Part shown: positions 1 to 13,703 of the stretch, piece by piece
Position numbering within the stretch: position 1 is the stretch's first letter
How the letters are laid out: every line of letters begins with the position of its first letter
NCBI GenBank assembly: GCA_963719425.1
Contig: OY970382.1
Span: 742,477 to 806,476 of the forward strand
From: an uncultured bacterium
GTDB lineage: Bacteria > Patescibacteriota > Minisyncoccia > UBA6257 > 2-01-FULL-56-20
Direction: 5' to 3'
DNA: 64,000 nucleotides
The notes under the pieces: model-generated
Databases searched by the model: none
What the model was told of the DNA's origin: nothing
The model's input: only the letters and a program-made list of their open reading frames with translations
Translations under genes and position numbers: made by a program

Positions 1-731
1 GCGACCACAAGGTAGTACGTCTCAAATCCACCGATACCGTCATCTTCTCCTCGTCGGTCGTGCCGGGAAACGAGCGGAGCGTGCAGGCGCTGCAGGACAA
101 CATTGCGCGGCAGGTGGACGAACTTTACAACGTAAAGATCCTGGACATCCACGCCTCGGGCCACGCGCATCAGGAGGACCTAAAGTTCGTGCTCCGGCTC
201 ATGAAACCGAAGTTTACTGTCCCGATTCACGGGTATTACTTTTTCCGTTCGGCGCTCAAAAAAATCGCGGTGGAAGTAGGCCTCCCCCGCGAAACGGTCA
301 AGATGATGGATAACGGGCAAGTGGCGGAAATTACAAAAGACACGTTTACGATAACCAAGCAGACCGTGCCCGCGTCGTATGTGATGGTGGACGGCTTGGG
401 CGTCGGCGACGTGGAAGAAGTGGTGCTCCGCGACCGGCGCGCGCTTTCTCAGGAAGGCATGGTTGTCATTATCCTCACTGTTGATCAAACCAAGGGGCGG
501 CTTCTCAAAAACCCTGACATCATCTCGCGCGGTTTTATCTATCTCAAGGAACATCAGGAGCTTCTGGAAGAAATTCGCAAACGCATCCGCGCGCTCATTA
601 CGCGCCTTCCCAGTTACCGCGAAGTGGAACCCGATTATCTAAAGACGCTCATCCGCGACCAAGTCGGACAGTTCCTCTATAACAAAACGCGGCGCCGGCC
701 GATGATCCTGCCCGTCATCATTGAGGTGTAG
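1..731 (+). CDS. rnj: Ribonuclease J, C-terminal part (5' end lies outside the window)
   Basis: The frame is open from nt 3. DTVIFSSSVVPGNE and SGHAHQEDLKFVLRLMKPKFTVPIHG match the RNase J beta-CASP/C-terminal region. Confidence 0.75.
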   Translation, partial: DHKVVRLKSTDTVIFSSSVVPGNERSVQALQDNIARQVDELYNVKILDIHASGHAHQEDLKFVLRLMKPKFTVPIHGYYFFRSALKKIAVEVGLPRETVKMMDNGQVAEITKDTFTITKQTVPASYVMVDGLGVGDVEEVVLRDRRALSQEGMVVIILTVDQTKGRLLKNPDIISRGFIYLKEHQELLEEIRKRIRALITRLPSYREVEPDYLKTLIRDQVGQFLYNKTRRRPMILPVIIEV

Positions 732-753
732 CTTTTTATGCTATTATCAGAAT

Positions 754-1740
754 ATGAAGCCAGTCCTCTTCTCTGGCGTGCAGCCAACCGGCCGATTGCA
801 TATCGGCAATTACCTGGGCGCGCTCAAAAATTTTGCTGACCTGCAGGACTCGGAGAAATACGAATGTTATTTCTGCATCGTAGATCTCCATTCCATCACC
901 GAAACGTTTGAACCAAAGGAAAAGCGCGAGCAGGTTATGAATCTGGCCGCCGATTTCATAGCGACAGGCATTGACCCAAAGAGATCGGTTCTCTTTCTCC
1001 AATCAAAAGTTTCCGCGCACGCCGAACTCGCATGGCTCCTCGATACTGTGACGTCCATGGGAGAGTTGGAACGCATGACCCAGTTCAAAGACAAATCACT
1101 CCGGCAATCGGCGAACATAAACGCGGGCCTCTTCAATTACCCCGTCCTCATGGCGGCCGATATCCTGCTTTACGACACGCAGGTGGTTCCCGTGGGCGAC
1201 GACCAACTGCAACACCTGGAACTCGCGCGCACGCTTGCGCGGAAGTTCAACGCCCGCTTCGGCAACACCTTCATAAAACCAAAAAGTTTGCTTACCAAAA
1301 CCTCGCGCGTGATGAGCTTGAAAGATCCGGAGAAAAAAATGTCCAAATCGGAGCCGGAGGGATGCTTGTTTTTGGATGATTCGCCCACGGAAATCGCAAA
1401 AAAGATCGCACATGCGGTCACGGATTCCGGCTCCGCGGTAACCTACGAACCGCACAAAAAACCCGGCCTTGCAAATCTTTTGGATATCTACGCGGCGCTT
1501 TCGCACGCGGAGCCACCGATAATCGCGAAGGAGTTCACAGGTGAAAATTATGCAACGCTCAAAAAGCGGCTTGCGGAACTCGTGGTGGACCATTTCGCGG
1601 AGTTCCGCGCTCAAAAAAAAGCGTTGCTCGCAAAGCCGTCGGCACTAAAAGACGTCCTTGAAGGAGGCTCGGCGCGCGCGGCGCGCGTTGCGGAAAAGAA
1701 AATAAAAGAAGTAAAAGAGAAGATGGGCCTTGCGCTCTAA
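754..1740 (+). CDS. trpS: Tryptophanyl-tRNA synthetase
   Basis: MKPVLFSGVQPTGRLHIGNYLGA carries the HIGH motif and KMSKS is present. The ORF-track start at 721 is TTG; the ATG at 754 gives the canonical TrpRS N-terminus. Confidence 0.9.
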   Translation: MKPVLFSGVQPTGRLHIGNYLGALKNFADLQDSEKYECYFCIVDLHSITETFEPKEKREQVMNLAADFIATGIDPKRSVLFLQSKVSAHAELAWLLDTVTSMGELERMTQFKDKSLRQSANINAGLFNYPVLMAADILLYDTQVVPVGDDQLQHLELARTLARKFNARFGNTFIKPKSLLTKTSRVMSLKDPEKKMSKSEPEGCLFLDDSPTEIAKKIAHAVTDSGSAVTYEPHKKPGLANLLDIYAALSHAEPPIIAKEFTGENYATLKKRLAELVVDHFAEFRAQKKALLAKPSALKDVLEGGSARAARVAEKKIKEVKEKMGLAL

Positions 1741-1812
1741 TAACGAAAAGCAACATTAAAAAATTATTAAAGAACCTTTGACAGAACGGTTGCCACGACT
1801 ACACTGGAAAGG

Positions 1813-2127
1813 ATGGAAAGGGAAATTACTATCCAAGACCTTGTCACGTCCATTAAAGATCTTACCCACGCTGTATGGGACGGATTCGGTCTGGTGGATA
1901 AACGCTTTAGCGACGTTGAGCAACAACTCGAACGGCGATTTAACGCCGTAGATAACCGATTTTACGCGCTTGAAGCACGCGTTGACCAGATCAGTTTTAG
2001 CATCTCCCAAATACAAGACGATATGAAGGCGCTCAATGAAGAAATGCGCGGCATTCATAAAGTGATTGACAACCTGAATACTCGCCTTGTTCGCGCAGAG
2101 GGCGCGCTTGGCCTCGAGCGTGCCTAA
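1813..2127 (+). CDS. Hypothetical small coiled-coil protein
   Basis: 104-aa ORF between trpS and ileS. No recognisable motif. Confidence 0.35.
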   Translation: MEREITIQDLVTSIKDLTHAVWDGFGLVDKRFSDVEQQLERRFNAVDNRFYALEARVDQISFSISQIQDDMKALNEEMRGIHKVIDNLNTRLVRAEGALGLERA

Positions 2128-5100
2128 ACCTTCCGGAGTGCGACCCAGATTTCTTGATTTTCCAATTTCGCCATTTCCTCCGCGCTGAATTTTTCCGATC
2201 TTCCGTATTCAACCGATTTCGCGTTGACGGCGGAGCGGAGCGCTACTTCTTGCTTCATAATTGCATCCCGAGCGGCCGGAGGGAGATCAAGCATCAGCGC
2301 AATCTTATCCTTCGGCGCGAGTCCTGCTTTTTGCCGCAGTTCCTGAACCATCCGCGCGACTTCGCGCAGGATTCCCTCTTCGCGGAGCTCCGGTGTGATC
2401 GCAGTGTCAAGTTCAACTTCGCTTTCAATCGTCGGATCAAATATCACTTCCTTCACGTTTACCTCATCAGCCAAAACGCCACGCAAATCTTCTGCCACCG
2501 ATATCTTCAGGGTCGCATCTTTTATTGTGAGTTTACTGAGTGGCTGGCGGACCTTGATGCCGGCCTCCGCACGTTTCGCAAGCGCCAAGCTCGCCAAGCG
2601 CCTCACTTCCGCCATAGCATCGGTCAATTTTTTCCTCTCCACTCCGTCGAAAGAAACCTCTGGAATCGGCCACCCGGCGAGATGCACCGACTCAGCAGTT
2701 TCCTTGCTGCCGCTATACAGCTTCAATGTTCGGTACAGTTCTTCGGCAAGAAACGGCATGAACGGCGCTATGACCTTACTTACCGCAAGGAGACTTTCGT
2801 AAAGGGACCGATAAAAAGCGGCATCCTTCCGCTTGCGGCTGCGGCGGAGATACCACGTGGAAAGGTCATCAATATATTCCTGGATCGTCCGCGTCGCACG
2901 CACGGTATCATATGCCGAAAGACATCCGGTCACTTTTTCCACAAGCTCCGCCGTCCGGGCGTCAATCCATTGGTCAAGAACGTTCACCCCGGGGAGCTCG
3001 CTGCGTTTTTCGGACGCAAGCATCTTCGGATCAACATACGTCGTGAAGAACTTGCATACGTTCCACAGAATGACAACCACTTTCCGATAAACGTTCTCCA
3101 CAGCCTTCTCGGAAAAATTGATGTCGTCGGCCTGCATCACGACGGAATTCATGAGATAGAATCGCAAACTGTCCGCCCCGTATTTCCCGATCACGAGCTT
3201 GGGGTCCGGGAAGTTCCCTTTTGATTTGCTCATCTTTGAACCATCTTCCGCAAGGATATTCCCGGTCGTGACCACGTTTTCAAAGGGCGCCTTCCCGAAG
3301 AGGACGATGGCAATCACGTGCATCACGTAGAACCATGCCCGCGTCTGTGCGGTGTATTCCGCCACGAACTGTGAAGGGAACCGGCTCTCAAAAACTTTTT
3401 TGTTTTCAAAGGGATAATGATATTCGGCGAAGGGCATAGAACCCGCTTCCATCCAGGAATCAAAAATTTCCGGCGTCCGTTTCATCACGCCGCCACATGC
3501 GGGGCACGCGAACGTTATGCCATCAATGTACGGCCGGTGGAGATCTGCTTCTCCCCCGTCATTCCGCGGCACGATCTTGAAATCGAGCTTCCGTATCTCC
3601 GCAAAGCCGATAAAGTCGCCCTCCCGTTTTTTCTTTTCTTCAATCGCGCGCTCTTCGCTCCACCCCTCGGCCGCATGCACGAGCATCCAGCTCGGATACT
3701 CATGCGTCACGAGGAGAATATTTTTCCCTTTGTAAGTCGCTTCGCACTCGGCAAGGAAATTCCACACGCGGGCGCGGAGATCGCGCAGCGATTCGCCTTC
3801 CTCCGGCCGCTTTTCAAACCGGGCCTCGTACGTCGGGAAAAGCCCGAAATATTTTTTATCCTGGTAACCGGTGAGCGTTGGCCCCAGATGGATCTCCTCC
3901 AACCGCCCGTCAAACCGCACTTTTTCTCCCGTGAGCGCCGACGCAATAATGGCTTCGGTTTCCGCGGTGCGCGTGACATCCGAGGAAATTACCACATCCA
4001 ATTTCTCGCCGCGCTTCGCAAGCTCGGATTTGAAACGTTTGATCGCGTCCTTAACCTGTTTTTGACCGCGCGGCGTAAGATGCAAATACTTCCTTTGCCC
4101 CGAATCAACGATGTGGAACATATTGCTCTCCGCCTCCCCATGGCGCATCACCCAATAATTATTTTTTGCACTACCGGCGAGCTTTGACAACTCTTCCAAG
4201 CTGCCGACCGCCTCCTCGCGACAGCATCCGTCGCACTTCCAGACGGGGATTGGATTTCCCCAATAACGGTTGCGGGAAATATTCCAGTCCGGCGCCGCCT
4301 CCACGCTTTTTTCGTAGCGCCCGTGCTTGAGATACGCCGGAAACCAATTGATTTCGCGCCTATTGGAATCCAAAAGTTGCGGCTTTAATTTCTCCACGTT
4401 GATGAACCACGCCGGGATCGCATTGTAGAAAAGTATGTTGCCGCAACGCCAGCAATACGGATACGAGTGTGTATGTGCCTCGCGTTTGAACAACAATCCG
4501 CGATTTTGCAAGTCGTCTTTAATGATTTTTTCAGAATCTTTGAAGTATGTGCCGCGCACGAGTGGCGGCGCTTTCTCGTTAAAGATCCCCTTTTCGTCAA
4601 GCAGCGGCACAACAGGCAACCCCACGCGCACGCCGAGTTCGTAGTCCTCCTCGCCGTAGACGACCGCCGTATGCACCACGCCCGTCCCCTCTTCGGTCGT
4701 CACAAAATCCGCCGGGTAGACCTTAAAAGCCTTGTCGTTCCACGCCGCAGGAACGTCAAAAAGCGGTTCGTACTCTATACCGATTGCTTCGCGCGCCGAG
4801 AATTCGTCGAATTCCCGTTCCGGCAAGGACTCTTTTTTAGGAAGAACATCTTCTCCAGACAAGCGCTTGTAACTTTCCTTCTCCAAAACCAACCAGTGGT
4901 CTTTTTGATCAGGATCGGGCAAGCACACCAACGTATGCTCCGGGTTGACCGCTAACGCGACGTTGCCAGGTAATGTCCATGGAGTCGTGGTCCAAGAAAG
5001 AAAAGAGGTGTTCTGCCACGCAGGATTATCACTCTTCGCCTTAAATTTCACCATTACCGATTCCTCCGTCACGTCGCGGTAACTGTTATCCATCGCCACT

Positions 5101-5687
5101 TCAAAATTTGAAATCGGTGTCTCGCAGCGCGGGCAATACAAAAGCACTTTCCGCCCCTCATAGACCAATCCTTTTTTATAAATTTCCTTGAACGCCCACC
5201 ACACCGATTCCATGTAACTCGCGTCCATCGTTTTATAGGAATCGTCAAATTCCACCCAGCGCGCGATGCGGCGGATCATTTTTCTCCATTCCGCGACGTA
5301 TTCCAGAACCATGCTCCGGCAGGTCTCGTTGAATTTTTTGATGCCGATCGCCTCTATCTGTTTCTTTCCCGAGATGCCGAGCTTGCGCTCCACGATCTCC
5401 TCAATGGGAAGCCCGTGGCAATCCCACCCCCAGCGGCGGCGGACAAACCGCCCGCGCATCGTCTGATAGCGCAGTACCACGTCTTTAATCGTGGACGCCA
5501 AAATGTGCCCGTAATGCGGGAGGCCCGTCGCAAACGGCGGCCCATCGTAGAATGTAAATGGTTTTCCGTCCTTGGTTTTTTCTAAACTTTTTTCAAAGAT
5601 ATGATGGGCGTCCCAAAACTCAAGCGTTTTCTCTTCGCGTTTCGGCAATGAGGAATTATCATTGGAGGAATTCCGTTTCTGCGCCAT
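2124..5687 (-). CDS. ileS: Isoleucyl-tRNA synthetase with an inserted histidine-phosphatase (PGM-like) domain
   Basis: 1187 aa. HYGHILASTIKD (HIGH) and KMSKSKGN are present. The CxxC ... CPAC zinc knuckle is split by a ~195-aa insert carrying RHGEAESN and SSDVTRTAETEA motifs. Confidence 0.9.
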   Translation of the reverse strand: MAQKRNSSNDNSSLPKREEKTLEFWDAHHIFEKSLEKTKDGKPFTFYDGPPFATGLPHYGHILASTIKDVVLRYQTMRGRFVRRRWGWDCHGLPIEEIVERKLGISGKKQIEAIGIKKFNETCRSMVLEYVAEWRKMIRRIARWVEFDDSYKTMDASYMESVWWAFKEIYKKGLVYEGRKVLLYCPRCETPISNFEVAMDNSYRDVTEESVMVKFKAKSDNPAWQNTSFLSWTTTPWTLPGNVALAVNPEHTLVCLPDPDQKDHWLVLEKESYKRLSGEDVLPKKESLPEREFDEFSAREAIGIEYEPLFDVPAAWNDKAFKVYPADFVTTEEGTGVVHTAVVYGEEDYELGVRVGLPVVPLLDEKGIFNEKAPPLVRGTYFKDSEKIIKDDLQNRGLLFKREAHTHSYPYCWRCGNILFYNAIPAWFINVEKLKPQLLDSNRREINWFPAYLKHGRYEKSVEAAPDWNISRNRYWGNPIPVWKCDGCCREEAVGSLEELSKLAGSAKNNYWVMRHGEAESNMFHIVDSGQRKYLHLTPRGQKQVKDAIKRFKSELAKRGEKLDVVISSDVTRTAETEAIIASALTGEKVRFDGRLEEIHLGPTLTGYQDKKYFGLFPTYEARFEKRPEEGESLRDLRARVWNFLAECEATYKGKNILLVTHEYPSWMLVHAAEGWSEERAIEEKKKREGDFIGFAEIRKLDFKIVPRNDGGEADLHRPYIDGITFACPACGGVMKRTPEIFDSWMEAGSMPFAEYHYPFENKKVFESRFPSQFVAEYTAQTRAWFYVMHVIAIVLFGKAPFENVVTTGNILAEDGSKMSKSKGNFPDPKLVIGKYGADSLRFYLMNSVVMQADDINFSEKAVENVYRKVVVILWNVCKFFTTYVDPKMLASEKRSELPGVNVLDQWIDARTAELVEKVTGCLSAYDTVRATRTIQEYIDDLSTWYLRRSRKRKDAAFYRSLYESLLAVSKVIAPFMPFLAEELYRTLKLYSGSKETAESVHLAGWPIPEVSFDGVERKKLTDAMAEVRRLASLALAKRAEAGIKVRQPLSKLTIKDATLKISVAEDLRGVLADEVNVKEVIFDPTIESEVELDTAITPELREEGILREVARMVQELRQKAGLAPKDKIALMLDLPPAARDAIMKQEVALRSAVNAKSVEYGRSEKFSAEEMAKLENQEIWVALRKV

Positions 5688-5750
5688 CGTTCTCTTAAAA
5701 TACCAGATTTTATGAGGATTTCAAAGGGGTCCGGCCGCATCGCCGCGGTG

Positions 5751-7463
5751 TTATATTTTTTCCGGCGCCCGAATGCCCAAAAGATCGAGGGATAATTTTA
5801 AAGCGTCGGCGGCAACTTTCACAAGAACGAGCCGCGCATCGCGTCGCTCCTTATTTTCATCCTTTAAGATCGGCGTTGTTTCGTAGAATTTGTTTGCCGC
5901 AACGGCAAGTTTATACACATAAGCAACAAGTCCGCTCGGGGCATTGAGTTCGCCCGCCCGAAGGACGGCGCCGGGAAACTCAATGAGCTTGCGGATAAGC
6001 GCGAGTTCCGCCTCGGTATCCAAAAATTCAGAGTGGAATTCCGCGCCGCGTATTTTCCCCGAAAGGTCAATTGACGATTTTCGCAAGATGCTTCGGAGGC
6101 GGGCGTGCGCATACTGTACGTACGGCCCCGAATCGCCCTCAAACGAAAGCGACTTGTCAAAATCAAACACAATGTCTTGCCCGGGGCTTTGTTTCAGAAT
6201 TGAATATTTGACCGCGCCCACGGCGATGTTCTCGGCCACCTCTTCGCGCTCTCTTTCGTCCAAATCGCTCTTCTCACTGATCCGTTCCCGCAGTTTTGCC
6301 TTGACCTGGTCAAGCATTGACTCGGCAGTGATCACGTCGCCGGTGCGCGACGACATCTTGCCGCTCGGAAGGCGCAGCATGCCGTGCGCCACGTGGCGGG
6401 TTTTTGCCGCGATGTCGGGAAAGATAAGCTCCATGGCCTTCAAAAGCACTTTAAAGTAATCAACAATCTCGTTGCCGGTCACGATGACGGAAATGTCCAG
6501 CGGGTACCGCTCAAATTTTTTCTTGTTCAGGCCGAGTTCTTTCGCTTCGTACGTCGGCAGCCCTTTTGAATTCACGAATACCCGCGTGTGCAGGCCATAT
6601 TTCTCTCCCGGGAATATGACGGCGCCCTCGCTCTCTATAAAGATGTCTCTGTGAGCCGCGACAACCGCCATCCCTTCCTTCGCCATCTCCCCTTCAAAAA
6701 AATAATCATTGAACTTCGTGCCAAGGCGGGCATAGACCGTTTCAAAATACGCCAAACTCCACTTCCGGCCTTCGTCGTAAAGCTTGTTTATTGCGGGATC
6801 CGTCCGCGAATATATCTTTTCGTTTATTCCGATAATGGCTTCCTTCGCGTCCGGCTCGCCCTCATACGCCTTCGCGCCACGCGCATACGCCTTGCCAAGA
6901 AATTCCATTTTATTCTCCGCGCTGCCCGTTTCGTCCTGCATTTTTTGCATGCCCCATATCGCCTTTGCAACATGGAGGCCGACGTCGCCCTGGTAATTCG
7001 CGCGGATCGCCTTCGCGCCGAGTGCCTCATACAGGCGTGCGAACGATTCCCCGATCGTGTTGCTCATAAGATGCCCGATATGGAAAAGCTTGAAGGGATT
7101 CGGGTCAGTGAATTCAACCATCACCGTTTTGCCCTTCATGCTACCGCTCATTCCGAACCGCTCGTCGCCCGCGATCTTTTTGATTTCTCCCTGCACCGTT
7201 TTTTTGCTCAACCAAAAATTGATGAAGCCCGGCGGCGCCGCTTCCACTTTTTCAAAAAATCCCACGGGCGCAGCCTTAGCCACCGCCGCCGCAAGCCGCT
7301 CCGCGCGCGCAAGCGGCTTTTCGCTCTGTTCCACCGCACCGCCGAGCCGCATTGCCACGTTCGTTGAATAATGCCCGAAAGTTTCCTGCTCCGGAACGAA
7401 AACCTCAATCGTCGCTGGTCCGCCGATCATACTTTTAACGATTTTAGCTATCTTATCTTTCAT
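5751..7463 (-). CDS. argS: Arginyl-tRNA synthetase
   Basis: 570 aa. HIGHLMSNTIGESFARL HIGH motif and ArgRS-like C-terminal anticodon-binding region. Confidence 0.9.
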   Translation of the reverse strand: MKDKIAKIVKSMIGGPATIEVFVPEQETFGHYSTNVAMRLGGAVEQSEKPLARAERLAAAVAKAAPVGFFEKVEAAPPGFINFWLSKKTVQGEIKKIAGDERFGMSGSMKGKTVMVEFTDPNPFKLFHIGHLMSNTIGESFARLYEALGAKAIRANYQGDVGLHVAKAIWGMQKMQDETGSAENKMEFLGKAYARGAKAYEGEPDAKEAIIGINEKIYSRTDPAINKLYDEGRKWSLAYFETVYARLGTKFNDYFFEGEMAKEGMAVVAAHRDIFIESEGAVIFPGEKYGLHTRVFVNSKGLPTYEAKELGLNKKKFERYPLDISVIVTGNEIVDYFKVLLKAMELIFPDIAAKTRHVAHGMLRLPSGKMSSRTGDVITAESMLDQVKAKLRERISEKSDLDEREREEVAENIAVGAVKYSILKQSPGQDIVFDFDKSLSFEGDSGPYVQYAHARLRSILRKSSIDLSGKIRGAEFHSEFLDTEAELALIRKLIEFPGAVLRAGELNAPSGLVAYVYKLAVAANKFYETTPILKDENKERRDARLVLVKVAADALKLSLDLLGIRAPEKI

Positions 7464-7647
7464 AGTTGACTACTTTGCGCAATGTCAGATAATGAGGGCG
7501 GACGACGAGCTGCCCTTTTTTCCTAGGGGCAAAGGTCCAAAGGGCAACGCCTTCCCTACCTACCAAGCTCGCCGTCCCTTTTCCATTATTTTGGGCCAAA
7601 AAGCACCGAAATACAATGCGTAGCCAAAGCGGGATTATAATAAAACT

Positions 7648-8085
7648 ATGGAAACTATCGCTGAAAACCGCAGGGCGCGGTTTGACTATGAAATTTCTGA
7701 CACCTATGAGGCGGGCGTTTCTTTGCTCGGCCACGAAGTGAAGAGTGCAAAAAGCGGCCGCTTCCAGATAGCGGGAGCGCGGGTTTTGATCCGCAACGGC
7801 GAGGCATGGCTTGTCAACTCCCACATCCCGCCCTATCAGCCGAAGAACACCCCTTCGGGCTACGAAGAGGACCGCTCGCGGAAACTTTTGCTGACAAAAG
7901 AGGAAATAAAACAACTGACTGGCGCACTTCAGGAAAAAGGGCAGATGCTCGTCCCACTCCGCGCCTTTCTGAAGCGCGGATTCATAAAATTGGAGCTCGG
8001 ACTCGGCCGCGCAAAGAAGAAATCCGACAAGCGCGAGGCGCTCAAAAAGCGCGCCCACGAGCGCGAGATGCGCGGCACCGAATAA
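7648..8085 (+). CDS. smpB: SsrA-binding protein SmpB
   Basis: 145 aa. RFDYEI...GHEVKS...LLL KEE is an SmpB signature, with a basic C-terminal tail. Confidence 0.9.
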   Translation: METIAENRRARFDYEISDTYEAGVSLLGHEVKSAKSGRFQIAGARVLIRNGEAWLVNSHIPPYQPKNTPSGYEEDRSRKLLLTKEEIKQLTGALQEKGQMLVPLRAFLKRGFIKLELGLGRAKKKSDKREALKKRAHEREMRGTE

Positions 8086-8145
8086 CTGAGCCGAATAGCC
8101 GAGCCGAATAGAAGCGCAGGCAGCCGCGGCGCCCCGCAACGCCCG

Positions 8146-8721
8146 CTAAAAAATCTTCACTCCAAACTTTGCGAGCTCATGCACGATCTCGTAGAGCGGC
8201 AATCCCATAATGCCGAAGAAGTCGCCTTCCACTTTCCGCACGAACGCCGCGCCGCGTCCCTGCACGGCGTATGCCCCTGCCTTATCCAAGGGCTCGCTTG
8301 TTCTTACGTATGCATTAATCTCGCGATCGCCAAGTTTCTTGAAGTAAACTTTGCTCGCACTCACGCGCGACACTCGCTTTCCCGTTTTAGTATCAATAAT
8401 AGTAAAGCCGGTAAGCACCGAATGCACCCCGCCGCTCAATAATTTCAGCATCGCTTTTGCCCTCCTCGGCGTGCCGGGTTTTCCCAAAACGCGGTTTTTA
8501 TAAACAATGAAGGTGTCCGCCCCGATAACGACGGCGTTCTTGTGCCGCTGCGCTACCGATTCCGCCTTTTTCAAAGACAGACTCTTCACAAGTTCCCTCG
8601 GCGCGAGTCCTAGGGTCATGTCTTCCTTATGATCGCCCGGGTCCACAATAAACTTCAAACCGATCCTATCCAGAATCTCCATCCTCCTCGAAGAGGACGA
8701 CGCAAGAACAATCTTCCGCAT
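8146..8721 (-). CDS. maf: Maf-like nucleoside triphosphate pyrophosphatase
   Basis: MRKIVLASSSSRRMEIL matches the Maf N-terminus. The ORF-track start at 8760 is GTG; the ATG at 8721 is preferred. Confidence 0.8.
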   Translation of the reverse strand: MRKIVLASSSSRRMEILDRIGLKFIVDPGDHKEDMTLGLAPRELVKSLSLKKAESVAQRHKNAVVIGADTFIVYKNRVLGKPGTPRRAKAMLKLLSGGVHSVLTGFTIIDTKTGKRVSRVSASKVYFKKLGDREINAYVRTSEPLDKAGAYAVQGRGAAFVRKVEGDFFGIMGLPLYEIVHELAKFGVKIF

Positions 8722-9176: not shown

Positions 9177-9237
9177 TACGTTCATATGGTAGATGTAATG
9201 ATACGCTAGGACTTACTTGCATGGTAAAATTATAAAA

Positions 9238-10002
9238 ATGAAGCTGATTACGCTGAACATCTGGGGTGGCGCCCTCTACGAGCCGCTTGCTGCTTTCATC
9301 AAACACTGGTCTCCCGAGATAGACATATTTTGCTTCCAAGAGGTGCTGTTTGGCTCTACGCCGACATTCACGCCGGTCCACAAAGGCCGCAGTAATATTT
9401 TTTCGGAAATCTCCTCATGGCTCCCTGGCTTTGCTTCCTATCAGCACTTCGCACCCAGCACGCATTTTCAAACGGAGCCCATAGCATTTAGAGCCGGGCA
9501 AGCGATTTTCACAAAATCTTCGCTGGAGATAAGGAGTAACGGCGGATTTCTTTGCTATAAAGGAAAGCCCCCAATCGAAACCACGAAGGGAGGCAAACTG
9601 ACGGGAAACTGCCAATGGATTGATATTGCGGACGGCAACAGCGCCATCACCATCGCGAATTTGCACGGACTGTGGCAAGAGGGCAGCCACAAGGCAGATA
9701 CGCCAGAGCGACTCACTCAATCGCGCATAGTGAAACAATTTCTTGACGGAAGAACGGGAAAGAAAATTCTCTGTGGAGATTTCAATTTATTGCCTGACGG
9801 GCAGAGCATAAAAATCCTTGAGGACGGCATGAAAAACCTGATAAAGGACTATCAAATTCAATCTACGCGCAGTTCGCTTTATAAGAAAGAAATCAAATTT
9901 GCCAATTATATTTTGGTTTCTCCCGAGGTTAAGGTAAAAGATTTTAGGGTTTTGTCAGATGAAGTTTCCGATCATCTCCCGCTCTACTTGGAATTCAATT
10001 GA
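9238..10002 (+). CDS. Endonuclease/exonuclease/phosphatase (EEP) family protein
   Basis: MKLITLNIWGG ... FCFQEV ... SDHLPL motifs. The ORF-track start at 9217 is TTG; the ATG at 9238 is preferred. Confidence 0.75.
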   Translation: MKLITLNIWGGALYEPLAAFIKHWSPEIDIFCFQEVLFGSTPTFTPVHKGRSNIFSEISSWLPGFASYQHFAPSTHFQTEPIAFRAGQAIFTKSSLEIRSNGGFLCYKGKPPIETTKGGKLTGNCQWIDIADGNSAITIANLHGLWQEGSHKADTPERLTQSRIVKQFLDGRTGKKILCGDFNLLPDGQSIKILEDGMKNLIKDYQIQSTRSSLYKKEIKFANYILVSPEVKVKDFRVLSDEVSDHLPLYLEFN

Positions 10003-10033
10003 GGAATGAAATAAAACCATAGTAAGGCTCGGC

Positions 10034-10147
10034 GGTGGAGACGAGTGGTCTTCGTTGGAACTCGGTGAATATTTGAGAAAACTACCACAGCTGCTAAGTC
10101 GGGCACGGTCAGCATCCCGTAGGACGTGCACTACGTGCACAACGTTC
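10034..10147. repeat. Direct repeat copy 2 (~105 bp)
   Basis: Core at 10043..10077 is identical to copy 1 except for one base. The left end ggtggagacgagtgg matches the ssrA 3' terminus (ggtggagacgggcgg) at 13/15 positions. Confidence 0.7.
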
Positions 10148-10216
10148 ACGACATACACGAAGTTCACTCATCTTCCATCATTACTGTCATGCAATGTAAG
10201 ATGGTTTTCAAAGAAT

Positions 10217-11610
10217 TCACAAAACGAAGGCATCGGTTGAGCTTGCTGAGAAGAGTACGGTGGTGCTGGCCTGCGGATCATAAAGGTATAGGCTTCCGCC
10301 GCGCTGAAAAATCAATTTATCGTCCTGCGTCCATTGCAGAGGGGTGACAAGAGGAAAGGCCCGGTCTTCCCCATCGGCTTGATCCATTCCGAGGCTGAAA
10401 AATTTTTTATTTGCGGGATTAGATACCTCTACAACAAAATTTCCGCACTGCTGTTCCGAAGTGCAGCTGTCAAAGACGATGAATTTGTCATCAAGAGACC
10501 AAGTGGGAACACCTATTTCGTAAGGATTCTCGTACAAAGTCGTCGATGGATAAATAAGTAGCGTGAATGATTGATCGTGAGCCGGAACATTCCATAGGGC
10601 GAGTTGAGAGTCCGAAAAGACTTCGACGGCGGCGAGTTTGTCGCCCGCATGGTCAAGCTGTCCACTGTAAAGAGTGTTGTTATCAGGTATAGTCGCGAAT
10701 AATGTATCCTGACCCGTGATCGTATTCAAAACGTGGAATTCCCTTGAGTGTGGTTCCAGCACGTAGTAGGAAGGACTCCCCCAATCCTTATACGTGGGAT
10801 AAAGTATGGAGCGAACATACAAAATATGCGCACCGTCATTTTGGAGAAGACCGTAAATATGGGAGGTATCGCTTGCGATATTGAGCCATTGTCTGCCAAG
10901 CTGTAGTATGTTTCCGCGTCCATGATCGTCGTTGTTGGGGCTGTCGCAGCCGCCATTGATGAATCATATACGGCCCTCCAGGCTTCGTTCGCCCCTCCTA
11001 ATGTCACTGTCGGCGGTAATGGGTACGGCGGGGTAGATGTTGTCCGGAGATCTATAACATTTTGGAATTTGGGTATGTAAACAAGGTGATCCGAAAGCCA
11101 ATAATCGGCGTTAAGAAATTCACCCACAAAACTACCTGTGAGTGATCCCGTGTCTTTGAGGGTTTTCGTGATTCGACCGCCATTATTCAAATCCATAAAA
11201 CCTATATCGGTCTCTCCGTCGTGGCCCAACATATAATATTCCGAATAGGAAAAATTGGGAGAGATGGAATAGTAGAATACGGTTCCGCTGGTATGAGAAA
11301 GTTGCATGGGGTTGCTTCCGTCGTCGTTGGCGATCCACACTTCACCACCCTTTAAAAAGGCAACTTTGTTCTGAAATGTATTCGGTGCAACTGACGACTG
11401 GCTTATACCAATTGTAGTTGTAGACGTTGATGACGTAGATGCGGCAGCTGGTTGGGATAGCGATGCCGGCGGTGGCGGTGGTGAAGTGACCAGCGGAACC
11501 AATGGAGAGGTTGGCTTCTTTAGCGCGAAATATAAAATCCCGCCTCCCACTACCAACAGGACCGCAACGATGAGAATGATTATAATCGGCGCGAAGCCTC
11601 TTCGATTCAT
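10217..11610 (-). pseudogene. Membrane-anchored Pro-rich / beta-propeller (TolB-like) surface protein, interrupted by a frameshift near 10965
   Basis: Two overlapping minus-strand ORFs (10726..11610 and 10217..10822). Both frames read as plausible protein on either side of ~10965. N-terminal TM helix, PPPPP linker, and WIANDDGS / YLYDP beta-propeller-like repeats. Confidence 0.5.
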
Positions 11611-11890
11611 TGCTTTAATTATAACAAATCAGAAACGGTTCGATTCCACTCGTCTCTTAGATATTTTGGGTCAAAAAAAGAGAAAACGACGCTCTGCAAG
11701 CGCTGATTCTGCTGGAGTCCCGATATCAAATAACCGTGGACGCAACGGCACTGCCACCGAACTATTTGATGCTATAGCCGAGAACGCCGAAGCAATGCAG
11801 ACATGGAACGCATTCGCGCAAGCGTTCATGGCCCAGGAACGCAAAGAGGACGCTCTATCTGTAACGCTTTGAGGTTGGTATAATCAGGGC

Positions 11891-12193
11891 ATGATCAAGC
11901 GTAAAGACAACCTCACGGACATCGTTGAAGACCTCCAAAAGGATCGGGATAAAAAGCCGGAACCGAATCAGAAGCCCGAAAAGCCCGGCAAAAACGAATG
12001 GCAAGTCACGGATAACGAAGGAAACATCGTCACTTTGGGCCAAAAACCCGGGAGCCGCACAGCGTCATCTAATAAGGCAAATCCCGTTGAACTATCTCAA
12101 GACGTGATGGAGGCTATCAAGCAGGCGGTACAAACGGGCATCAAAGAAGCGTTTGAGAAGTGGGAGGAAAAACGGCGACGCGAAAAATCGTAA
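11891..12193 (+). CDS. Hypothetical protein (Lys/Glu-rich, 100 aa)
   Basis: ORF only. Lower-GC, phage-like context. Confidence 0.4.
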   Translation: MIKRKDNLTDIVEDLQKDRDKKPEPNQKPEKPGKNEWQVTDNEGNIVTLGQKPGSRTASSNKANPVELSQDVMEAIKQAVQTGIKEAFEKWEEKRRREKS

Positions 12194-12233
12194 TCAGCTG
12201 GAAGGTTGTCGCGAGCGAGGTGCTATGTCATAG

Positions 12234-12968
12234 TTGCAAAGAAACATGGCCATCACAAGAACGAGCCAGCTGCAAAAATGGATATTGGAAACATGCCTGG
12301 AAAAAGTGAGGTTCCAAAGAACGGATGCGCGGGCGTTCTTCGGCAAGCGATTTTCGCCAAGCTACCTCAAAGATAATCCCAAGCATCGCATTGGAGATTG
12401 GAAAATCAAAAAGTGGTATGACGGTGACATGAGCCTGTTCGAACGGCGGACTGAAACCGTCATGGAGTGGCGGCGAAAGCTACAGAAGCGCGTGCCGGTA
12501 ACCAAAATCTACTGCGTCCCCAAAAAAGAGCTCATCGCCACTCCGACCATCGAAGTCACGATCTCGCGCAGCCTGCACAACCTCGTGCGAAAGGACCTGC
12601 TTGAGCAGTCAAAGAAGTGGGGACCGTACACCCTGACCAAACGCGGATTCGAAACTGTTAAGAACAGTCCAGATAAGTGGACTGGTATTAGCTTTAAGGA
12701 ATATGAGGCAAAAGTAGAGGAAGCGCGAAAAGAGGAGGAAGGGTGGATGGCCGCAACGGTCGCCAAGCTGACGCCGCCATCCGCCCAGAAGCAGCGCAAG
12801 ACGCTTGAACTGCAAGCGAAGCTGCAGGACTTTAATAAGCGATTCAATCCGGCGACGATCCACGCGCGATTGTGTAGGAAATGCCAAAAGAAGATAGCCC
12901 GATTCGAAAAGGCGTCCGGAGCTACGGCGATTAAAAAGCTCCGGGATGAAATCAACCGCACAGAGTAA
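12234..12968 (+). CDS. Hypothetical protein, possible winged-helix DNA-binding
   Basis: 244-aa ORF. The segment RSLHNLVRKDLLEQSKKWGPYTLTKRG resembles a winged helix. Confidence 0.45.
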   Translation: MQRNMAITRTSQLQKWILETCLEKVRFQRTDARAFFGKRFSPSYLKDNPKHRIGDWKIKKWYDGDMSLFERRTETVMEWRRKLQKRVPVTKIYCVPKKELIATPTIEVTISRSLHNLVRKDLLEQSKKWGPYTLTKRGFETVKNSPDKWTGISFKEYEAKVEEARKEEEGWMAATVAKLTPPSAQKQRKTLELQAKLQDFNKRFNPATIHARLCRKCQKKIARFEKASGATAIKKLRDEINRTE

Positions 12969-13096
12969 ATGTTAATGAGTTTCTTCCGCGGATGAAACTC
13001 CTTAACAATAAGGATTGTGGCAAGCCATTGTATGGGTTACAATAAAAGTGTGAGACAGCCGAGCTGGCTCAAAAATAGGACGACGTAGGACGACGC

Positions 13097-13654
13097 ATGA
13101 AAATACTCCCCCAGCAGGAATATCATATCCGCCAAGTGATCCGCGACAATCTCGCGCTCAATCCCCTGATCTCAATCCGCAATCTCCAGAAGGTGGTTGA
13201 GTACAACACACATCGCCCGATCGGCGATAAGTATTTGATGCGGTTGCTTGGGAAGATCCGTGGCGAGGTTATTGCCCAAGCGGACCGGCAGGGAGTGGCC
13301 GAGCGGCTCACCGAAGTGAAGGAGCGCTTCCGGGTGTTGCGGAAAGAGTTGCTTCGCATCGTCTACTGGGAGATGAGATACTTCCCGGAGTATGGCATTG
13401 AACGGCCGAGTAGCCGCGACCGTATGAACGCCATAAAAACGATTGCCCAGATGGACCTCGCCCTCCTCAAAACCGAGCTTGATACCGGGATGTTCAGCAA
13501 AAAGCAGAACGACATTGAGGCATTGCTCAACGACCCCGCCTTGCCATCCGAACTGCACGAGCAAATCGTGGGCGTATTCAGGCAATGGAGGTTCTCGCGG
13601 CCTGAACGAACCGAGGCAAAAACAGCTCCGCAGATGGCTATTGTCAAAAACTGA
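13097..13654 (+). CDS. Hypothetical protein
   Basis: 185-aa ORF. No recognisable motif. Confidence 0.45.
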   Translation: MKILPQQEYHIRQVIRDNLALNPLISIRNLQKVVEYNTHRPIGDKYLMRLLGKIRGEVIAQADRQGVAERLTEVKERFRVLRKELLRIVYWEMRYFPEYGIERPSSRDRMNAIKTIAQMDLALLKTELDTGMFSKKQNDIEALLNDPALPSELHEQIVGVFRQWRFSRPERTEAKTAPQMAIVKN

Positions 13655-13703
13655 GAGGGCCGAGGGCGGCGAATAGGAGCCCATTGGGCACCGTTCGAGC
13701 CAC

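What the first reader, a model, noticed from the sequence alone, without database searches (positions are those of the whole stretch)
3588..4175. Histidine-phosphatase (phosphoglycerate-mutase-like) domain inserted into the zinc knuckle of isoleucyl-tRNA synthetase
IleRS (minus strand, 1187 aa) has its Cys4 knuckle split: ...PIPVWKCDGCCREE [~195-aa insert] DGITFACPACGG.... The insert (aa ~505-700) carries the catalytic signatures of histidine phosphatase branch 1: WVMRHGEAESN (the RHGE motif), ISSDVTRTAETEA (the S-x-L-x-RA-x-x-TA motif), and a distal LLVTHEYP histidine motif. It lies between the editing domain and KMSKS. I am not aware of an aaRS with an embedded PGM-family phosphatase. It could be a tRNA 3'-end phosphatase/repair activity, a nucleotide phosphatase, or a regulatory module, but that is speculation.
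Basis: partly seen in the sequence, partly recalled or inferred. Interest (0 to 1): 0.75.

Follow-up and report, generated by a model that had tools for sequence, protein, structure and literature searches.

The report
Phosphatase nested inside isoleucyl-tRNA synthetase
The enzyme that loads isoleucine onto tRNA in this tiny-genome (CPR/Patescibacteria) bacterium has a complete, apparently active histidine phosphatase inside its catalytic core, and in sister lineages the same phosphatase is a separate gene directly upstream of the synthetase gene, so the two enzymes are conserved partners whose joint function has not been described.

Summary

It is not a chimera. At least 91 distinct 50%-identity clusters, all named ones Patescibacteria, share the architecture. 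The catalytic pentad R-H-R-E/D-H is kept in 123/123 full-length fusions. dN/dS is about 0.03-0.10.

New findings:
- Free-standing homologues match the insert end to end. In 9/9 loci they lie just upstream of an insert-less ileS, in the same smpB-argS-ileS synteny. Fused and split forms are mutually exclusive.
- The insert has its own history. Identity discordance with the IleRS body starts and stops at the insert edges.
- The same phosphatase clade is also fused to TsaC-like proteins (4 clusters) and once to ArgRS.

So it is a dedicated accessory phosphatase of the tRNA-charging machinery. Its substrate is unknown. My leading guess is a terminal phosphate on tRNA or a nucleotide. PPi removal or an unrelated metabolite are rivals. 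Ten full-text literature searches found no description of it. Interest 0.72.

The parts
2124..5687 (-). ileS: type-2 (eukaryote-like) isoleucyl-tRNA synthetase, 1187 aa, with a nested phosphatase
5505..5516 (-). HIGH signature (HYGH, aa 58-61)
   Evidence: Verified by translation. Invariant in 58 homologues.
4428..5087 (-). CP1 editing domain (aa ~201-420), including TTTPWT (4974-4991) and GTGVVH (4671-4688). It is flanked by CP-core Cys pairs CPRC (5124-5135) and CWRC (4443-4454).
4257..4295 (-). CP2-CP3 linker APDWNISRNRYWG (aa 465-477), equivalent to yeast 453-ARDWNVSRNRYWG-465, which lines the tRNA CCA-end / reveromycin pocket
   Evidence: Sequence. Role of the equivalent yeast segment from PMC7955072. 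Invariant across homologues.
4173..4235 (-). N-terminal half of the CP3 zinc subdomain: first Cys pair C485/C488 (CDGCC, 4221-4235) and helix VGSLEELSKLAG (aa 494-505)
   Evidence: Aligns to Tth '[19 protein letters not shown]'. C485 is invariant and C488 is 92% conserved. The segment is kept in insert-less IleRSs.
3582..4172 (-). Nested branch-1 histidine phosphatase module (aa 506-702). Catalytic residues: R515-H516-G517 (4137-4145), N522 (4122-4124), R573 (3969-3971), E598 (3894-3896), H662 (3702-3704).
3546..3581 (-). Fusion-specific return linker FKIVPRNDGGEA (aa 703-714) with a conserved PRND motif
   Evidence: Absent from free-standing phosphatases and from insert-less IleRSs. At least 70% conserved among fusions. 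pLDDT ~92 in the full-length model.
3495..3545 (-). C-terminal half of the CP3 zinc subdomain: DLHRPYID and the second Cys pair C728/C731 (CPAC, 3495-3506)
   Evidence: Aligns to Tth 'DPHRPYVDQVELACACGG'. H717, R718, P719, D722, C728 and C731 are invariant.
3222..3236 (-). KMSKS signature (aa 818-822)
2130..2975 (-). Anticodon-binding domain (aa 905-1052) and type-2 C-terminal domain DUF5915 (aa 1090-1186)
   Evidence: Pfam PF08264 and PF19302.
5751..7463 (-). argS (ArgRS), 63 nt upstream of ileS on the same strand. In split-gene relatives the free-standing phosphatase gene sits between argS and ileS.
   Evidence: Pfam. Gap measured. Synteny in L013-L022.
7648..8085 (+). smpB, a divergently oriented synteny anchor shared with the split-gene loci
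   Evidence: Pfam SmpB. Present in the same position in L013, L014, L016, L020-L023.

Best explanation
SHOWN:
- The gene encodes a complete type-2 IleRS. HIGH, KMSKS and the CP1 editing motifs are intact.
- The zinc-binding CP3 subdomain of this IleRS carries a whole branch-1 histidine phosphatase of about 197 aa, joined through short ordered linkers.
- The module has all five catalytic residues and is under purifying selection at least as strong as the rest of the enzyme.
- It resembles compact phosphomonoesterases, not phosphoglycerate mutases.
- It is the fused form of a phosphatase gene that in sister Patescibacteria lies directly upstream of an insert-less ileS in the same argS-ileS operon.
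- Fused and split forms are mutually exclusive.
- The module has been exchanged between IleRS lineages at exactly this site.
- The same phosphatase clade is also fused to TsaC-like threonylcarbamoyl-AMP synthase homologues and, once, to ArgRS.

INFERRED:
- The phosphatase is a dedicated, catalytically active accessory of the tRNA-charging and tRNA-modification machinery. Its nucleophile is His516, with a phospho-histidine intermediate and Glu598 as the acid.
- My committed best guess for the substrate is a terminal phosphomonoester on tRNA or on a nucleotide. A 2'/3'-phosphate left on the CCA end would block aminoacylation, so dephosphorylation (healing) and charging would be coupled in one polypeptide or operon.
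- The existence of the partnership is well supported (~0.85-0.9). The substrate class is a weakly supported guess (~0.3).
For: - Identity and fold.
- Catalytic pentad R-H-R-E/D-H in 123/123 full-length embedded and 35/36 free forms. dN/dS of the insert is 0.03-0.10, against 0.06-0.13 for the body and 0.17-0.20 for CP1 (dS is saturated, so this is qualitative).
- Breadth: all 120 best homologues carry PF00300. 91 of 149 representative 50%-identity clusters have IleRS flanks.
- Split/fused equivalence. Six of six free-standing homologues lie -10 to +17 nt upstream of ileS. Three of three insert-less IleRSs chosen independently have the phosphatase gene between argS and ileS. The downstream IleRSs align to residues ...504 and 714..., so they lack exactly the insert. 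The free proteins are colinear with the insert end to end. Fused loci have no separate copy within about 6 kb.
- Cassette behaviour. Insert versus body identity is discordant, and the breakpoints fall at the insert edges.
- Independent associations with other tRNA-pathway, adenylate-forming enzymes. TsaC-like + His_Phos_1 occurs in 4 diverged clusters. ArgRS + His_Phos_1 occurs once.
- In CPR, the other fusion partners of TsaC are nucleic-acid or tRNA maintenance enzymes: MGMT-C, TruB, 2H cyclic phosphodiesterase, AAG, NUDIX. That places the phosphatase in an RNA-maintenance slot.
- The insert begins 28 residues after the CP2-CP3 linker, which lines the tRNA CCA-end pocket in yeast IleRS (PMC7955072).
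- The linkers are predicted to be ordered (pLDDT ~90).
- The substrate cap (aa 603-630) is not conserved across the clade. This fits a substrate recognised mainly through its terminal phosphate or through the partner enzyme.
Against: - No biochemical data exist.
- I could not read coordinates from the models, so the distance and orientation between His516 and the aminoacylation pocket are unknown.
- CP3 is not described as a tRNA-contacting element in the IleRS-tRNA papers I read. Its topology varies among IleRSs, so it may simply be a permissive insertion site.
- The nearest structural relatives all act on small metabolites.
- A tRNA-end healing role gives no obvious reason for preferring IleRS over the other synthetases.
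- TsaC does not itself bind the tRNA 3' end (own knowledge).
- The ArgRS fusion is a simple read-through of neighbouring genes and a singleton. It shows that neighbour-driven fusion happens without any need for mechanistic coupling.
- Only 64 kb of the genome was visible. I could not test for a second IleRS or for the presence or absence of PPase, RtcB, LigT or a CCA-enzyme HD domain.
Confidence: 0.5

Rival explanations
1. Product-removal enzyme. The phosphatase hydrolyses a by-product shared by adenylate-forming enzymes, most plausibly inorganic pyrophosphate, or else AMP or another nucleotide. This would pull amino-acid activation forward in cells with minimal metabolism.
For: - All three fusion partners (IleRS, ArgRS, TsaC-like) catalyse ATP -> acyl-AMP + PPi (partners shown; the reaction chemistry is own knowledge).
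- The substrate cap is unconserved, which is compatible with a very small substrate bound only by the catalytic core.
- Histidine-phosphatase-superfamily enzymes can cleave phosphoanhydride bonds, as the branch-2 Vip1/PPIP5K domains do (PMC13573052).
Against: - No branch-1 member is known to me as a PPase.
- The nearest structures are monoesterases.
- If PPi removal were the point, fusions to many other synthetases would be expected, but 91 of 94 long representative hits are IleRS.
- The other CPR TsaC partners are nucleic-acid maintenance enzymes, not PPi-related.
- Whether these genomes lack a canonical PPase could not be checked.
Confidence: 0.15
2. Housekeeping small-molecule phosphatase with no mechanistic link to aminoacylation. 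It ended up in or next to ileS through operon history, and the fusion only guarantees co-expression. CP3 is simply a tolerant loop.
For: - The closest structures are metabolite phosphatases: glucosyl-3-phosphoglycerate phosphatase, phosphoserine phosphatase, PhoE and a riboflavin-pathway HFP.
- CP3 topology is variable among IleRSs (PMC7191050).
- The ArgRS fusion arose by read-through of adjacent genes.
- The whole smpB-argS-ileS-recO block is syntenic in these streamlined genomes, so adjacency may be inherited rather than selected.
Against: - A nested insertion cannot arise by simple read-through.
- The same site has been reused or exchanged across distant IleRS lineages, with sharp breakpoints.
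- The body tree implies about two fused<->split transitions, yet the linkage is never lost in the 9/9 loci sampled.
- The clade fused independently to TsaC-like proteins in an unrelated genomic context.
- No equivalog model of any known metabolic phosphatase or mutase is reached.
Confidence: 0.2
3. Protein phosphatase or regulator. The module removes phosphate (pHis, pSer, pThr or pTyr) from IleRS itself or from a partner. One possibility is reversing inactivation by a toxin kinase of the HipA type, which targets synthetases (own knowledge).
For: - There is a weak SixA profile hit.
- An unconserved cap would suit macromolecular substrates.
Against: - No kinase gene is conserved in the neighbourhood.
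- There is no evidence of phosphorylation.
Confidence: 0.08
4. Catalytically dead structural or RNA-binding module, or an assembly or annotation artefact.
For: None beyond the general possibility. One free-standing homologue (P0198) has H->S at the second histidine.
Against: - The pentad is invariant in 123/123 fusions.
- dN/dS is low.
- Hundreds of independent assemblies from NCBI, ENA, JGI and Logan share identical junction architecture.
- Composition is homogeneous.
- The reading frame is uninterrupted.
Confidence: 0.03

Closest known systems
Type-2 (eukaryote-like, mupirocin-resistant) IleRS, e.g. Thermus thermophilus 1ILE, Priestia megaterium IleRS2 8C8U, yeast 8WND/7D5C
   Different: In the known enzymes CP3 is a ~60-residue subdomain. 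Here a ~9-residue CP3 loop is replaced by a ~209-residue phosphatase plus linker. NCBI's pipeline names the fused proteins only 'class I tRNA ligase family protein', while insert-less relatives are named 'isoleucine--tRNA ligase'.
Compact branch-1 histidine phosphatases: H. thermophilus metal-independent phosphoserine phosphatase (4IJ5), M. tuberculosis Rv2419c glucosyl-3-phosphoglycerate phosphatase (4QIH) and 'hydrolase 1' (6S2Q), B. stearothermophilus PhoE (1H2E)
   Different: Only 20-26% identical. No NCBIfam equivalog threshold is reached. The domain is nested in, or operon-linked to, a synthetase. It carries clade-specific motifs: N-x-Y before strand 1 and H-E-x-P-x-W after the second His. 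The substrate is unknown.
Cofactor-dependent phosphoglycerate mutase (dPGM / GpmA, GpmB, archaeal dPGM)
   Same: Same superfamily and the same phospho-histidine chemistry. NCBIfam dPGM_arch is the best-scoring named model for the insert (58.5 bits).
   Different: The score is far below the equivalog cutoff (225). The domain lacks the extra length and C-terminal tail of mutases. Structural neighbours of ~200 aa (phosphatases) fit better than the 230-250-aa mutases: target-normalised TM-score 0.73-0.77 against 0.55-0.62. I do not file it as a mutase.
Other enzymes built from a histidine-phosphatase domain plus a nucleic-acid or tRNA-related partner: M. tuberculosis Rv2228c RNase H/acid phosphatase (NCBIfam PRK07238), and the TFIIIC tau55 histidine phosphatase domain (2YN0)
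   Different: Those are terminal fusions to different partners. None is nested inside a catalytic domain, and none involves a synthetase.
Synthetases carrying extra enzymatic domains, e.g. NCBIfam NF040702 'isoleucine--tRNA ligase, N-acetyltransferase domain-containing', and Mycoplasma penetrans MetRS fused to an ancillary domain (9OS7)
   Same: An essential class I synthetase has acquired a second catalytic module. Both examples surfaced.
   Different: The added enzyme class is different. I did not examine where the GNAT domain sits. No phosphatase is involved.
tRNA 3'-end healing activities: the HD-domain phosphatase/2',3'-cyclic phosphodiesterase of the E. coli CCA-adding enzyme, and T4/Clostridial Pnkp phosphatase (own knowledge, not tested here)
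   Same: This is a possible functional analogy. In these systems a phosphatase is physically coupled to an enzyme that acts on the tRNA 3' end.
   Different: The folds are unrelated (HD, HAD, calcineurin-like). The analogy is a hypothesis only.

Membership tests
Histidine phosphatase superfamily, branch 1 (Pfam PF00300 His_Phos_1) | Profile score above the curated gathering threshold | tested here: met
   94.5 bits for the insert alone and 89.3 bits in the whole protein, against a cutoff of 21.7.
Histidine phosphatase superfamily, branch 1 (Pfam PF00300 His_Phos_1) | N-terminal RHG motif with the nucleophilic histidine | tested here: met
   R515-H516-G517. R and H are invariant in 218/218 domain sequences (123 full-length embedded, 36 free-standing, 59 fragments). 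G is 94-97% conserved.
Histidine phosphatase superfamily, branch 1 (Pfam PF00300 His_Phos_1) | Second arginine, acidic proton donor and second histidine of the phosphate pocket | tested here: met
   R573 is invariant. Position 598 is always E or D. H662 is present in 123/123 embedded and 35/36 free forms.
Histidine phosphatase superfamily, branch 1 (Pfam PF00300 His_Phos_1) | Alpha/beta fold superimposable on solved members | tested here: met
Histidine phosphatase superfamily, branch 1 (Pfam PF00300 His_Phos_1) | Phosphoryl-transfer activity through a phospho-histidine intermediate | not testable with these tools
   Requires an enzyme assay with wild type and an H516A mutant.
Cofactor-dependent phosphoglycerate mutase (dPGM/GpmA/GpmB equivalogs) | Score at or above the NCBIfam equivalog cutoff | tested here: not met
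   dPGM_arch 58.5 against 225. GpmB 44.4 against 261. PRK01295 33.2 against 316.
Cofactor-dependent phosphoglycerate mutase (dPGM/GpmA/GpmB equivalogs) | Mutase-length domain (~230-250 aa) with a C-terminal tail | tested here: not met
   The module is ~197 aa and ends where the free-standing 187-195-aa homologues end. The best structural matches are ~200-215-aa phosphatases.
Known specific phosphatases (CobC alpha-ribazole phosphatase, PspA phosphoserine phosphatase, SixA) | Score at or above the NCBIfam equivalog cutoff | tested here: not met
   cobC 50.3 against 162.9. PspA 35.2 against 350. SixA 22.7 against 74.5.
Isoleucyl-tRNA synthetase (TIGR00392), type 2 | Equivalog profile score | tested here: met
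   809.5 bits against 621.4.
Isoleucyl-tRNA synthetase (TIGR00392), type 2 | Class I signatures HIGH and KMSKS | tested here: met
   HYGH at 58-61 and KMSKS at 818-822.
Isoleucyl-tRNA synthetase (TIGR00392), type 2 | CP1 editing domain with conserved Thr-rich and GTG.VH motifs | tested here: met
   TTTPWT 233-238 and GTGVVH 334-339. Matches editing-domain structures.
Isoleucyl-tRNA synthetase (TIGR00392), type 2 | Type-2 C-terminal domain instead of the bacterial type-1 zinc-binding domain; closest to type-2/eukaryotic structures | tested here: met
   DUF5915 at 1090-1186. Type-2, eukaryotic and Tth chains give E 1e-199 to 1e-213. Type-1 S. aureus and P. megaterium IleRS1 give 1e-84 to 1e-91.
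Isoleucyl-tRNA synthetase (TIGR00392), type 2 | Isoleucine-specific aminoacylation of tRNA(Ile) | not testable with these tools
   Requires a biochemical assay. Whether the genome has a second ileS could not be checked, because only 64 kb was visible.
Intein or other self-excising insertion (considered because the domain interrupts a host protein and has its own phylogeny) | Hint/intein domains and nucleophilic junction residues (Cys/Ser/Thr at the N-junction, His-Asn + Cys/Ser/Thr at the C-junction) | tested here: not met
   No intein or Hint Pfam hit. The junctions are ...KLAG|SAKNNY... and ...GGEA|DLHRPY....

The most novel reading that the evidence does not exclude
In a large part of the Patescibacteria, tRNA charging is physically coupled to a repair step. 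The nested (or operon-encoded) histidine phosphatase removes a blocking 2'/3'-terminal phosphate or pyrophosphate from tRNA. Such ends arise from RNase or toxin damage, from 2H-phosphodiesterase opening of cyclic ends, or from toxSAS-type 3'-pyrophosphorylation. The tRNA would be dephosphorylated immediately before aminoacylation, giving a 'heal-and-charge' synthetase. The module would be a swappable cassette that also serves TsaC and ArgRS. That would be a new class of synthetase accessory activity and a new substrate class for branch-1 histidine phosphatases.
Probability: 0.25. Interest if true: 0.88.

Novelty: new variant of a known kind. Interest (0 to 1): 0.72.

Why it matters
- Aminoacyl-tRNA synthetases are among the best-studied enzymes. 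Their added domains have repeatedly revealed new biology, including editing, signalling and complex assembly.
- Here an apparently active enzyme of a different class sits inside the catalytic domain of an essential synthetase.
- It is conserved across a major bacterial radiation and has an unambiguous split-gene equivalent. It is exchanged as a cassette, and its clade independently joined two other tRNA-pathway enzymes.
- This is strong comparative evidence for a functional partnership that, as far as ten full-text searches show, nobody has described.
- The question is directly testable. The protein can be expressed, His516 mutated, the insert replaced by the 9-residue Thermus loop, and candidate substrates assayed.
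- The answer would say something about how ultra-small, host-dependent bacteria keep translation running.
- There is also a practical point. NCBI's pipeline fails to name the fused proteins as IleRS, so metabolic reconstructions of these genomes may miss ileS. Separately, they may count the phosphatase as a 'phosphoglycerate mutase'.

Tried and rejected
1. Editing-domain-less IleRS carrying the phosphatase. About 915-980-aa hits with the domain at ~260-460 looked like this. They begin inside CP1 ('LAWTTTPWTLPGN...') and lack HIGH, so they are N-terminally truncated gene calls.
2. Nucleic-acid binding inferred from charge. Free-standing forms are basic (median pI 9.4) and embedded forms are neutral (6.6). 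The control showed that basicity tracks genome GC: ArgRS and IleRS in the same AT-rich loci are also basic, and the 45%-GC locus has an acidic phosphatase. Rejected.
3. Glycolytic mutase. All mutase equivalog thresholds are missed by a wide margin, and the structural neighbours are phosphatases.
4. Intein or mobile self-splicing element. No supporting features.
5. Assembly chimera or recent horizontal insertion. Composition is homogeneous and hundreds of independent assemblies share the architecture.
6. Paralogue of the phosphatase elsewhere in the window. None found.
7. Domain-only NJ tree to polarise fusion against fission. It is star-like with long branches and not interpretable beyond two coherent free-standing clusters. 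The body tree gives about two transitions, but it is NJ with a midpoint root and no support values.
8. Substrate inference from conserved cap residues. The cap (603-630) is not conserved between free and embedded forms, so there is no signal.
9. Recurrence of the ArgRS-phosphatase fusion. A metagenome scan found only the same contig again, so it is a singleton.
10. AlphaFold-DB fold search. The library was unavailable.
11. Literature. Ten full-text searches found nothing on IleRS or any synthetase plus a histidine phosphatase or PGM domain, or on CPR synthetase inserts.
12. Model geometry. The tools return no coordinates, so the orientation of the phosphatase active site relative to the aminoacylation site could not be measured.


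Full report
**1. What is in the sequence**

The window carries a 1187-codon ORF on the minus strand at 2124-5687. The whole protein scores 809.5 bits against the NCBIfam ileS equivalog, whose cutoff is 621.4. Pfam finds tRNA-synt_1, Anticodon_1 and the type-2 C-terminal domain DUF5915.

On their own these residues hit Pfam His_Phos_1 at E=8.7e-27, 94.5 bits against a cutoff of 21.7. All quoted motifs are present and were verified by coordinate:
- HYGH 58-61
- TTTPWT 233-238 and GTGVVH 334-339 (editing domain)
- CDGCC 485-489
- RHG 515-517, R573, E598, H662
- CPAC 728-731
- KMSKS 818-822

GC content across the insert equals that of the flanks.

**2. Exact position of the insert**

phmmer against PDB sequences aligns residues 13-503 to T. 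thermophilus IleRS 9-479, and residues 715-1044 to 489-821. Thermus has the same CxxC...CxC motif ('[21 protein letters not shown] ... DPHRPYVDQVELACACGG'). The phosphatase therefore replaces a ~9-residue loop inside an existing zinc subdomain.

Published IleRS structure papers call this subdomain CP3. They note that only the Thermus CP3 binds zinc and that CP3 topology differs among IleRSs (PMC7191050). In yeast IleRS, the segment just before CP3 (453-ARDWNVSRNRYWG-465) lines the pocket for the tRNA CCA end and for reveromycin A (PMC7955072). Our equivalent is 465-APDWNISRNRYWG-477, 28 residues before the insert. That is proximity in sequence, not demonstrated proximity in space.

**3. Fold and catalytic competence**

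- An AlphaFold2 model of the full protein, built from 58 homologues, has mean pLDDT 84.6 and pTM 0.76. The insert and both linkers score about 85-95.
- A model of residues 484-738 has pLDDT 92.5 and pTM 0.89.
- Foldseek against the PDB returns only branch-1 histidine phosphatases. The top hits are the compact ~200-215-aa enzymes: mycobacterial hydrolase 1 (6S2Q), Rv2419c glucosyl-3-phosphoglycerate phosphatase, Hydrogenobacter phosphoserine phosphatase, PhoE and a riboflavin-pathway HFP. Their target-normalised TM-scores are 0.73-0.77, ahead of 230-250-aa mutases at 0.55-0.62.
- No NCBIfam equivalog of any mutase or named phosphatase is approached.
- Across 218 domain sequences, R515, H516 and R573 are invariant and position 598 is always E or D. 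H662 is present in 123/123 full-length fusions and 35/36 free-standing forms.
- Against the three closest relatives, dN/dS of the insert is 0.03-0.10. The rest of the gene gives 0.06-0.13 and CP1 gives 0.17-0.20. dS is saturated, so this is qualitative only.

The module looks like an active phosphomonoesterase, not a mutase and not a relic.

**4. Distribution**

- All 120 best database homologues, down to 52% identity, carry PF00300 together with the IleRS domains. Source names are Minisyncoccia, Paceibacterota, Liptonbacteria, Jorgensenbacteria, Doudnabacteria, 'Saccharibacteria' and Patescibacteria group.
- An identical protein lies on an 887,956-nt contig.
- An exhaustive HMMER search of 1.84 billion 50%-identity representatives with the insert gave 245 hits at E<=1e-10. 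Of the best 149, 91 are long proteins with IleRS flanks.
- Eleven species-representative genomes hold close relatives, all Patescibacteria.

A chimera is excluded.

**5. The split-gene equivalent (the main new result)**

The same search returned 187-212-aa free-standing proteins at 33-40% identity.
- I looked up six of them on their contigs. All six are encoded immediately upstream of ileS, with stop-to-start distances of -10 to +17 nt.
- Usually the gene lies between argS and ileS, with smpB divergent further upstream. This is exactly the synteny of our window: smpB 7648-8085 (+), argS 5751-7463 (-), ileS 2124-5687 (-).
- The downstream IleRSs (938-984 aa) have no PF00300. They align to our protein as ...504/506 and 714/717..., so they lack precisely the insert while keeping the CP3 cysteines.
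- The free proteins are colinear with the insert from its first motif (K-x-N-N-x-Y...RHG) to its last strand (GE-x-R-x-L).
- As a reciprocal test I searched with an insert-less IleRS. Its 120 best relatives are an interleaved mix of insert-less (~940-970 aa) and fused (~1130-1190 aa) proteins at about 65% identity, both present even within Candidatus Nealsonbacteria.
- Three insert-less IleRSs on long contigs all have a 187-193-aa His_Phos_1 gene between argS and ileS. The total is 9 of 9.
- A profile scan of every ORF in all fetched loci shows that fused loci have no separate copy nearby and split loci have exactly one.
- An NJ tree of 137 IleRS bodies with insert columns removed needs only about two fused<->split changes. 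It has no support values, so this is indicative only.

**6. The insert has its own history**

I compared 201 fused proteins with ours.
- Proteins whose IleRS body is 35-45% identical to ours have inserts of median 33% identity. L005, L006 and L007 are exceptions, with inserts of 64-69%, and P0122 has 55%.
- Proteins whose body is 65-75% identical fall into two classes, with inserts of about 70% or about 30% identity.
- Sliding-window identity places the switches at the insert edges. For L006 the values run 48% -> 78...68% -> 40%. For P0090 they run 68% -> 36...29% -> 88% (first seen).

The module has therefore been exchanged between IleRS lineages, or re-acquired, at the same CP3 site.

Two variants show the plasticity of the site. 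One protein has two tandem phosphatase copies (P0225). One single-cell genome has lost all four knuckle cysteines but keeps the phosphatase (L010).

**7. Other partners of the same phosphatase clade**

Three long representative hits lacked IleRS flanks.
- P0194 is ArgRS with the phosphatase fused to its C-terminus by read-through (...APEHM|FNNSYFFLRHGE...). In that locus ileS is missing from its usual slot: smpB | argS-phosphatase - recO. A metagenome scan found no second example.
- P0190 is a Sua5/YciO/YrdC (TsaC-like) domain followed by the phosphatase, in an unrelated neighbourhood. This architecture recurs in four clusters at 52-65% identity from Patescibacteria. The only non-TsaC proteins its search retrieves are IleRS-embedded phosphatases, so it belongs to the same clade.
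- In the same list, CPR TsaC-like proteins are fused to an MGMT C-terminal domain (the majority), TruB, 2H cyclic phosphodiesterases, an AAG glycosylase, NUDIX or GNAT. These are mostly tRNA or nucleic-acid maintenance enzymes.

**8. How it most likely works**

Shown: a complete IleRS with a complete, catalytically equipped branch-1 histidine phosphatase rigidly nested in CP3; a conserved, mutually exclusive fused/split relationship with ileS; cassette exchange; and independent fusions to TsaC-like proteins and to ArgRS.

Inferred: the phosphatase is a dedicated accessory of the tRNA-charging and tRNA-modification machinery. Its chemistry would follow established superfamily knowledge: a phospho-His516 intermediate with Glu598 as the general acid.

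The substrate is not established. The candidates are:
- **(a) Leading guess, about 0.3.** A terminal phosphomonoester on tRNA or a nucleotide, such as a 2'/3'-phosphate on the CCA end. This is favoured by the tRNA-centred set of partners, by the RNA-maintenance character of TsaC's other partners including 2H phosphodiesterases, by the unconserved substrate cap, and by the insertion next to the CCA-pocket linker.
- **(b) Removal of a shared by-product such as PPi.** All three partners make an acyl-adenylate plus PPi. Branch-2 members of the superfamily cleave phosphoanhydrides (PMC13573052). No branch-1 PPase is known to me, and the bias toward IleRS is unexplained.
- **(c) An unrelated metabolite phosphatase kept with ileS by operon history.** The nearest structures act on metabolites and CP3 is a variable, permissive loop. 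Against this, a nested insertion, its reuse across lineages and the independent TsaC fusion argue for more than accident.
- **(d) A protein phosphatase or regulator.**
- **(e) A dead module.** This is contradicted.

**9. Comparison with what is known, and novelty**

The host is an ordinary type-2 IleRS, and the guest is an ordinary-looking compact histidine phosphatase. What is new is the combination, its position inside the catalytic domain, its split-gene twin and its cassette behaviour.

Precedents exist for HP domains fused to nucleic-acid proteins (Rv2228c RNase H/acid phosphatase; TFIIIC tau55) and for synthetases with extra enzymatic domains (NCBIfam 'ileS_w_GNAT'; M. penetrans MetRS). 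None is a phosphatase nested in a synthetase.

Ten full-text searches found no description. The library lacks most subscription-journal papers, so I cannot exclude a report elsewhere. The proteins have been in public databases for some time with Pfam domains precomputed, so the architecture is 'known' to databases but apparently unremarked.

I rate it a new variant of a known kind, with interest 0.72.

**10. Limits**

- No coordinates were available from the models, so domain orientation is untested.
- Only 64 kb of the genome could be read.
- The trees are NJ without support values.
- dS is saturated.
- Context sampling was 9 split loci, limited by look-up caps.
- The ArgRS fusion is a singleton from what may be one sample assembled twice.

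Noticed in passing
L010 (SAG AM-311-L09, JBHPGB010000009.1), IleRS ORF 4492-8157, region aligned to window aa 483-731: This IleRS has lost all four CP3 knuckle cysteines ('WEAES-GER...' and '...LE--KD-GMDY') but keeps the phosphatase insert with its catalytic motifs. The zinc site is therefore dispensable for hosting the module.
   Followed up: partly
P0225 (1087 aa, JGI/ENA, 5.3-kb contig): An IleRS with two tandem His_Phos_1 copies in the CP3 insert. RHG occurs at 544 and 755, and Pfam finds two stretches at 541-697 and 749-897.
   Followed up: partly
L005, L006, L007, P0122 versus the window; also P0086-P0120: Insert and IleRS body have discordant similarity, with breakpoints at the insert edges. 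Inserts are 55-69% identical on ~42% bodies, or ~30% on ~65% bodies. This implies exchange of the phosphatase cassette between IleRS lineages.
   Followed up: yes
L023/L024 5001-7070 (contig Ga0180433_10000452, 70 kb): ArgRS carries a C-terminal His_Phos_1 fused by read-through. ileS is absent from its usual place between the phosphatase and recO. No second example turned up in a metagenome scan.
   Followed up: partly
P0190/L025 977-2140; P0395-P0397; P0398-P0511: Patescibacteria TsaC-like (Sua5/YciO/YrdC) proteins are promiscuous fusion partners. Most carry an MGMT C-terminal DNA-binding domain (PF01035). Others carry TruB, 2H cyclic phosphodiesterase, AAG glycosylase, NUDIX, GNAT or this histidine phosphatase.
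   Followed up: partly
Database names: NCBI's pipeline names the fused proteins only 'class I tRNA ligase family protein', while insert-less relatives are named 'isoleucine--tRNA ligase'. Automated reconstructions may therefore score ileS as missing in these genomes.
   Followed up: no
window 19440-21377, and roughly 9200-21100: A large serine recombinase gene (19440-21095, +; Resolvase + Recombinase + Zn_ribbon_recom) overlaps the end of the tmRNA gene (21062-21377, -). Upstream lie many ORFs without Pfam hits, a reverse transcriptase (16199-17239, RVT_1) and a LOOT RNA (RF03000, 19198-19321, -). This looks like an integrated mobile element at tmRNA, which is a classic integration site by own knowledge.
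   Followed up: no
window 60-7463: This is a cluster of RNA and translation genes. It holds the RNase J C-terminal part (60-731), TrpRS (721-1740), a 104-aa coiled-coil ORF (1813-2127, overlapping the ileS stop by 4 nt on the opposite strand), IleRS and ArgRS. TrpRS and ArgRS are of ordinary length with no extra domains.
   Followed up: partly
window 54714-57285: dnaN (54714-55826, -) and dnaA (55915-57285, -) are present, so the window lies next to the probable replication origin. A class A penicillin-binding protein (52231-54717), a type II/IV secretion ATPase (49093-50799) and RuvB (47830-48831) are nearby.
   Followed up: no
window 23411-25668: A PolX-family polymerase (HHH_8, thumb, PHP) is followed by a NUDIX hydrolase. 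The same PolX-NUDIX pair occurs upstream of the smpB-argS-phosphatase-ileS block in L014/L015, so synteny extends further in relatives.
   Followed up: no
L013 7387-8004, L020 1921-2811, L022 2531-3514: Some split-gene operons contain ORFs of 205-327 aa with no Pfam hits, either between argS and the phosphatase or between the phosphatase and ileS. They could be further partners.
   Followed up: partly
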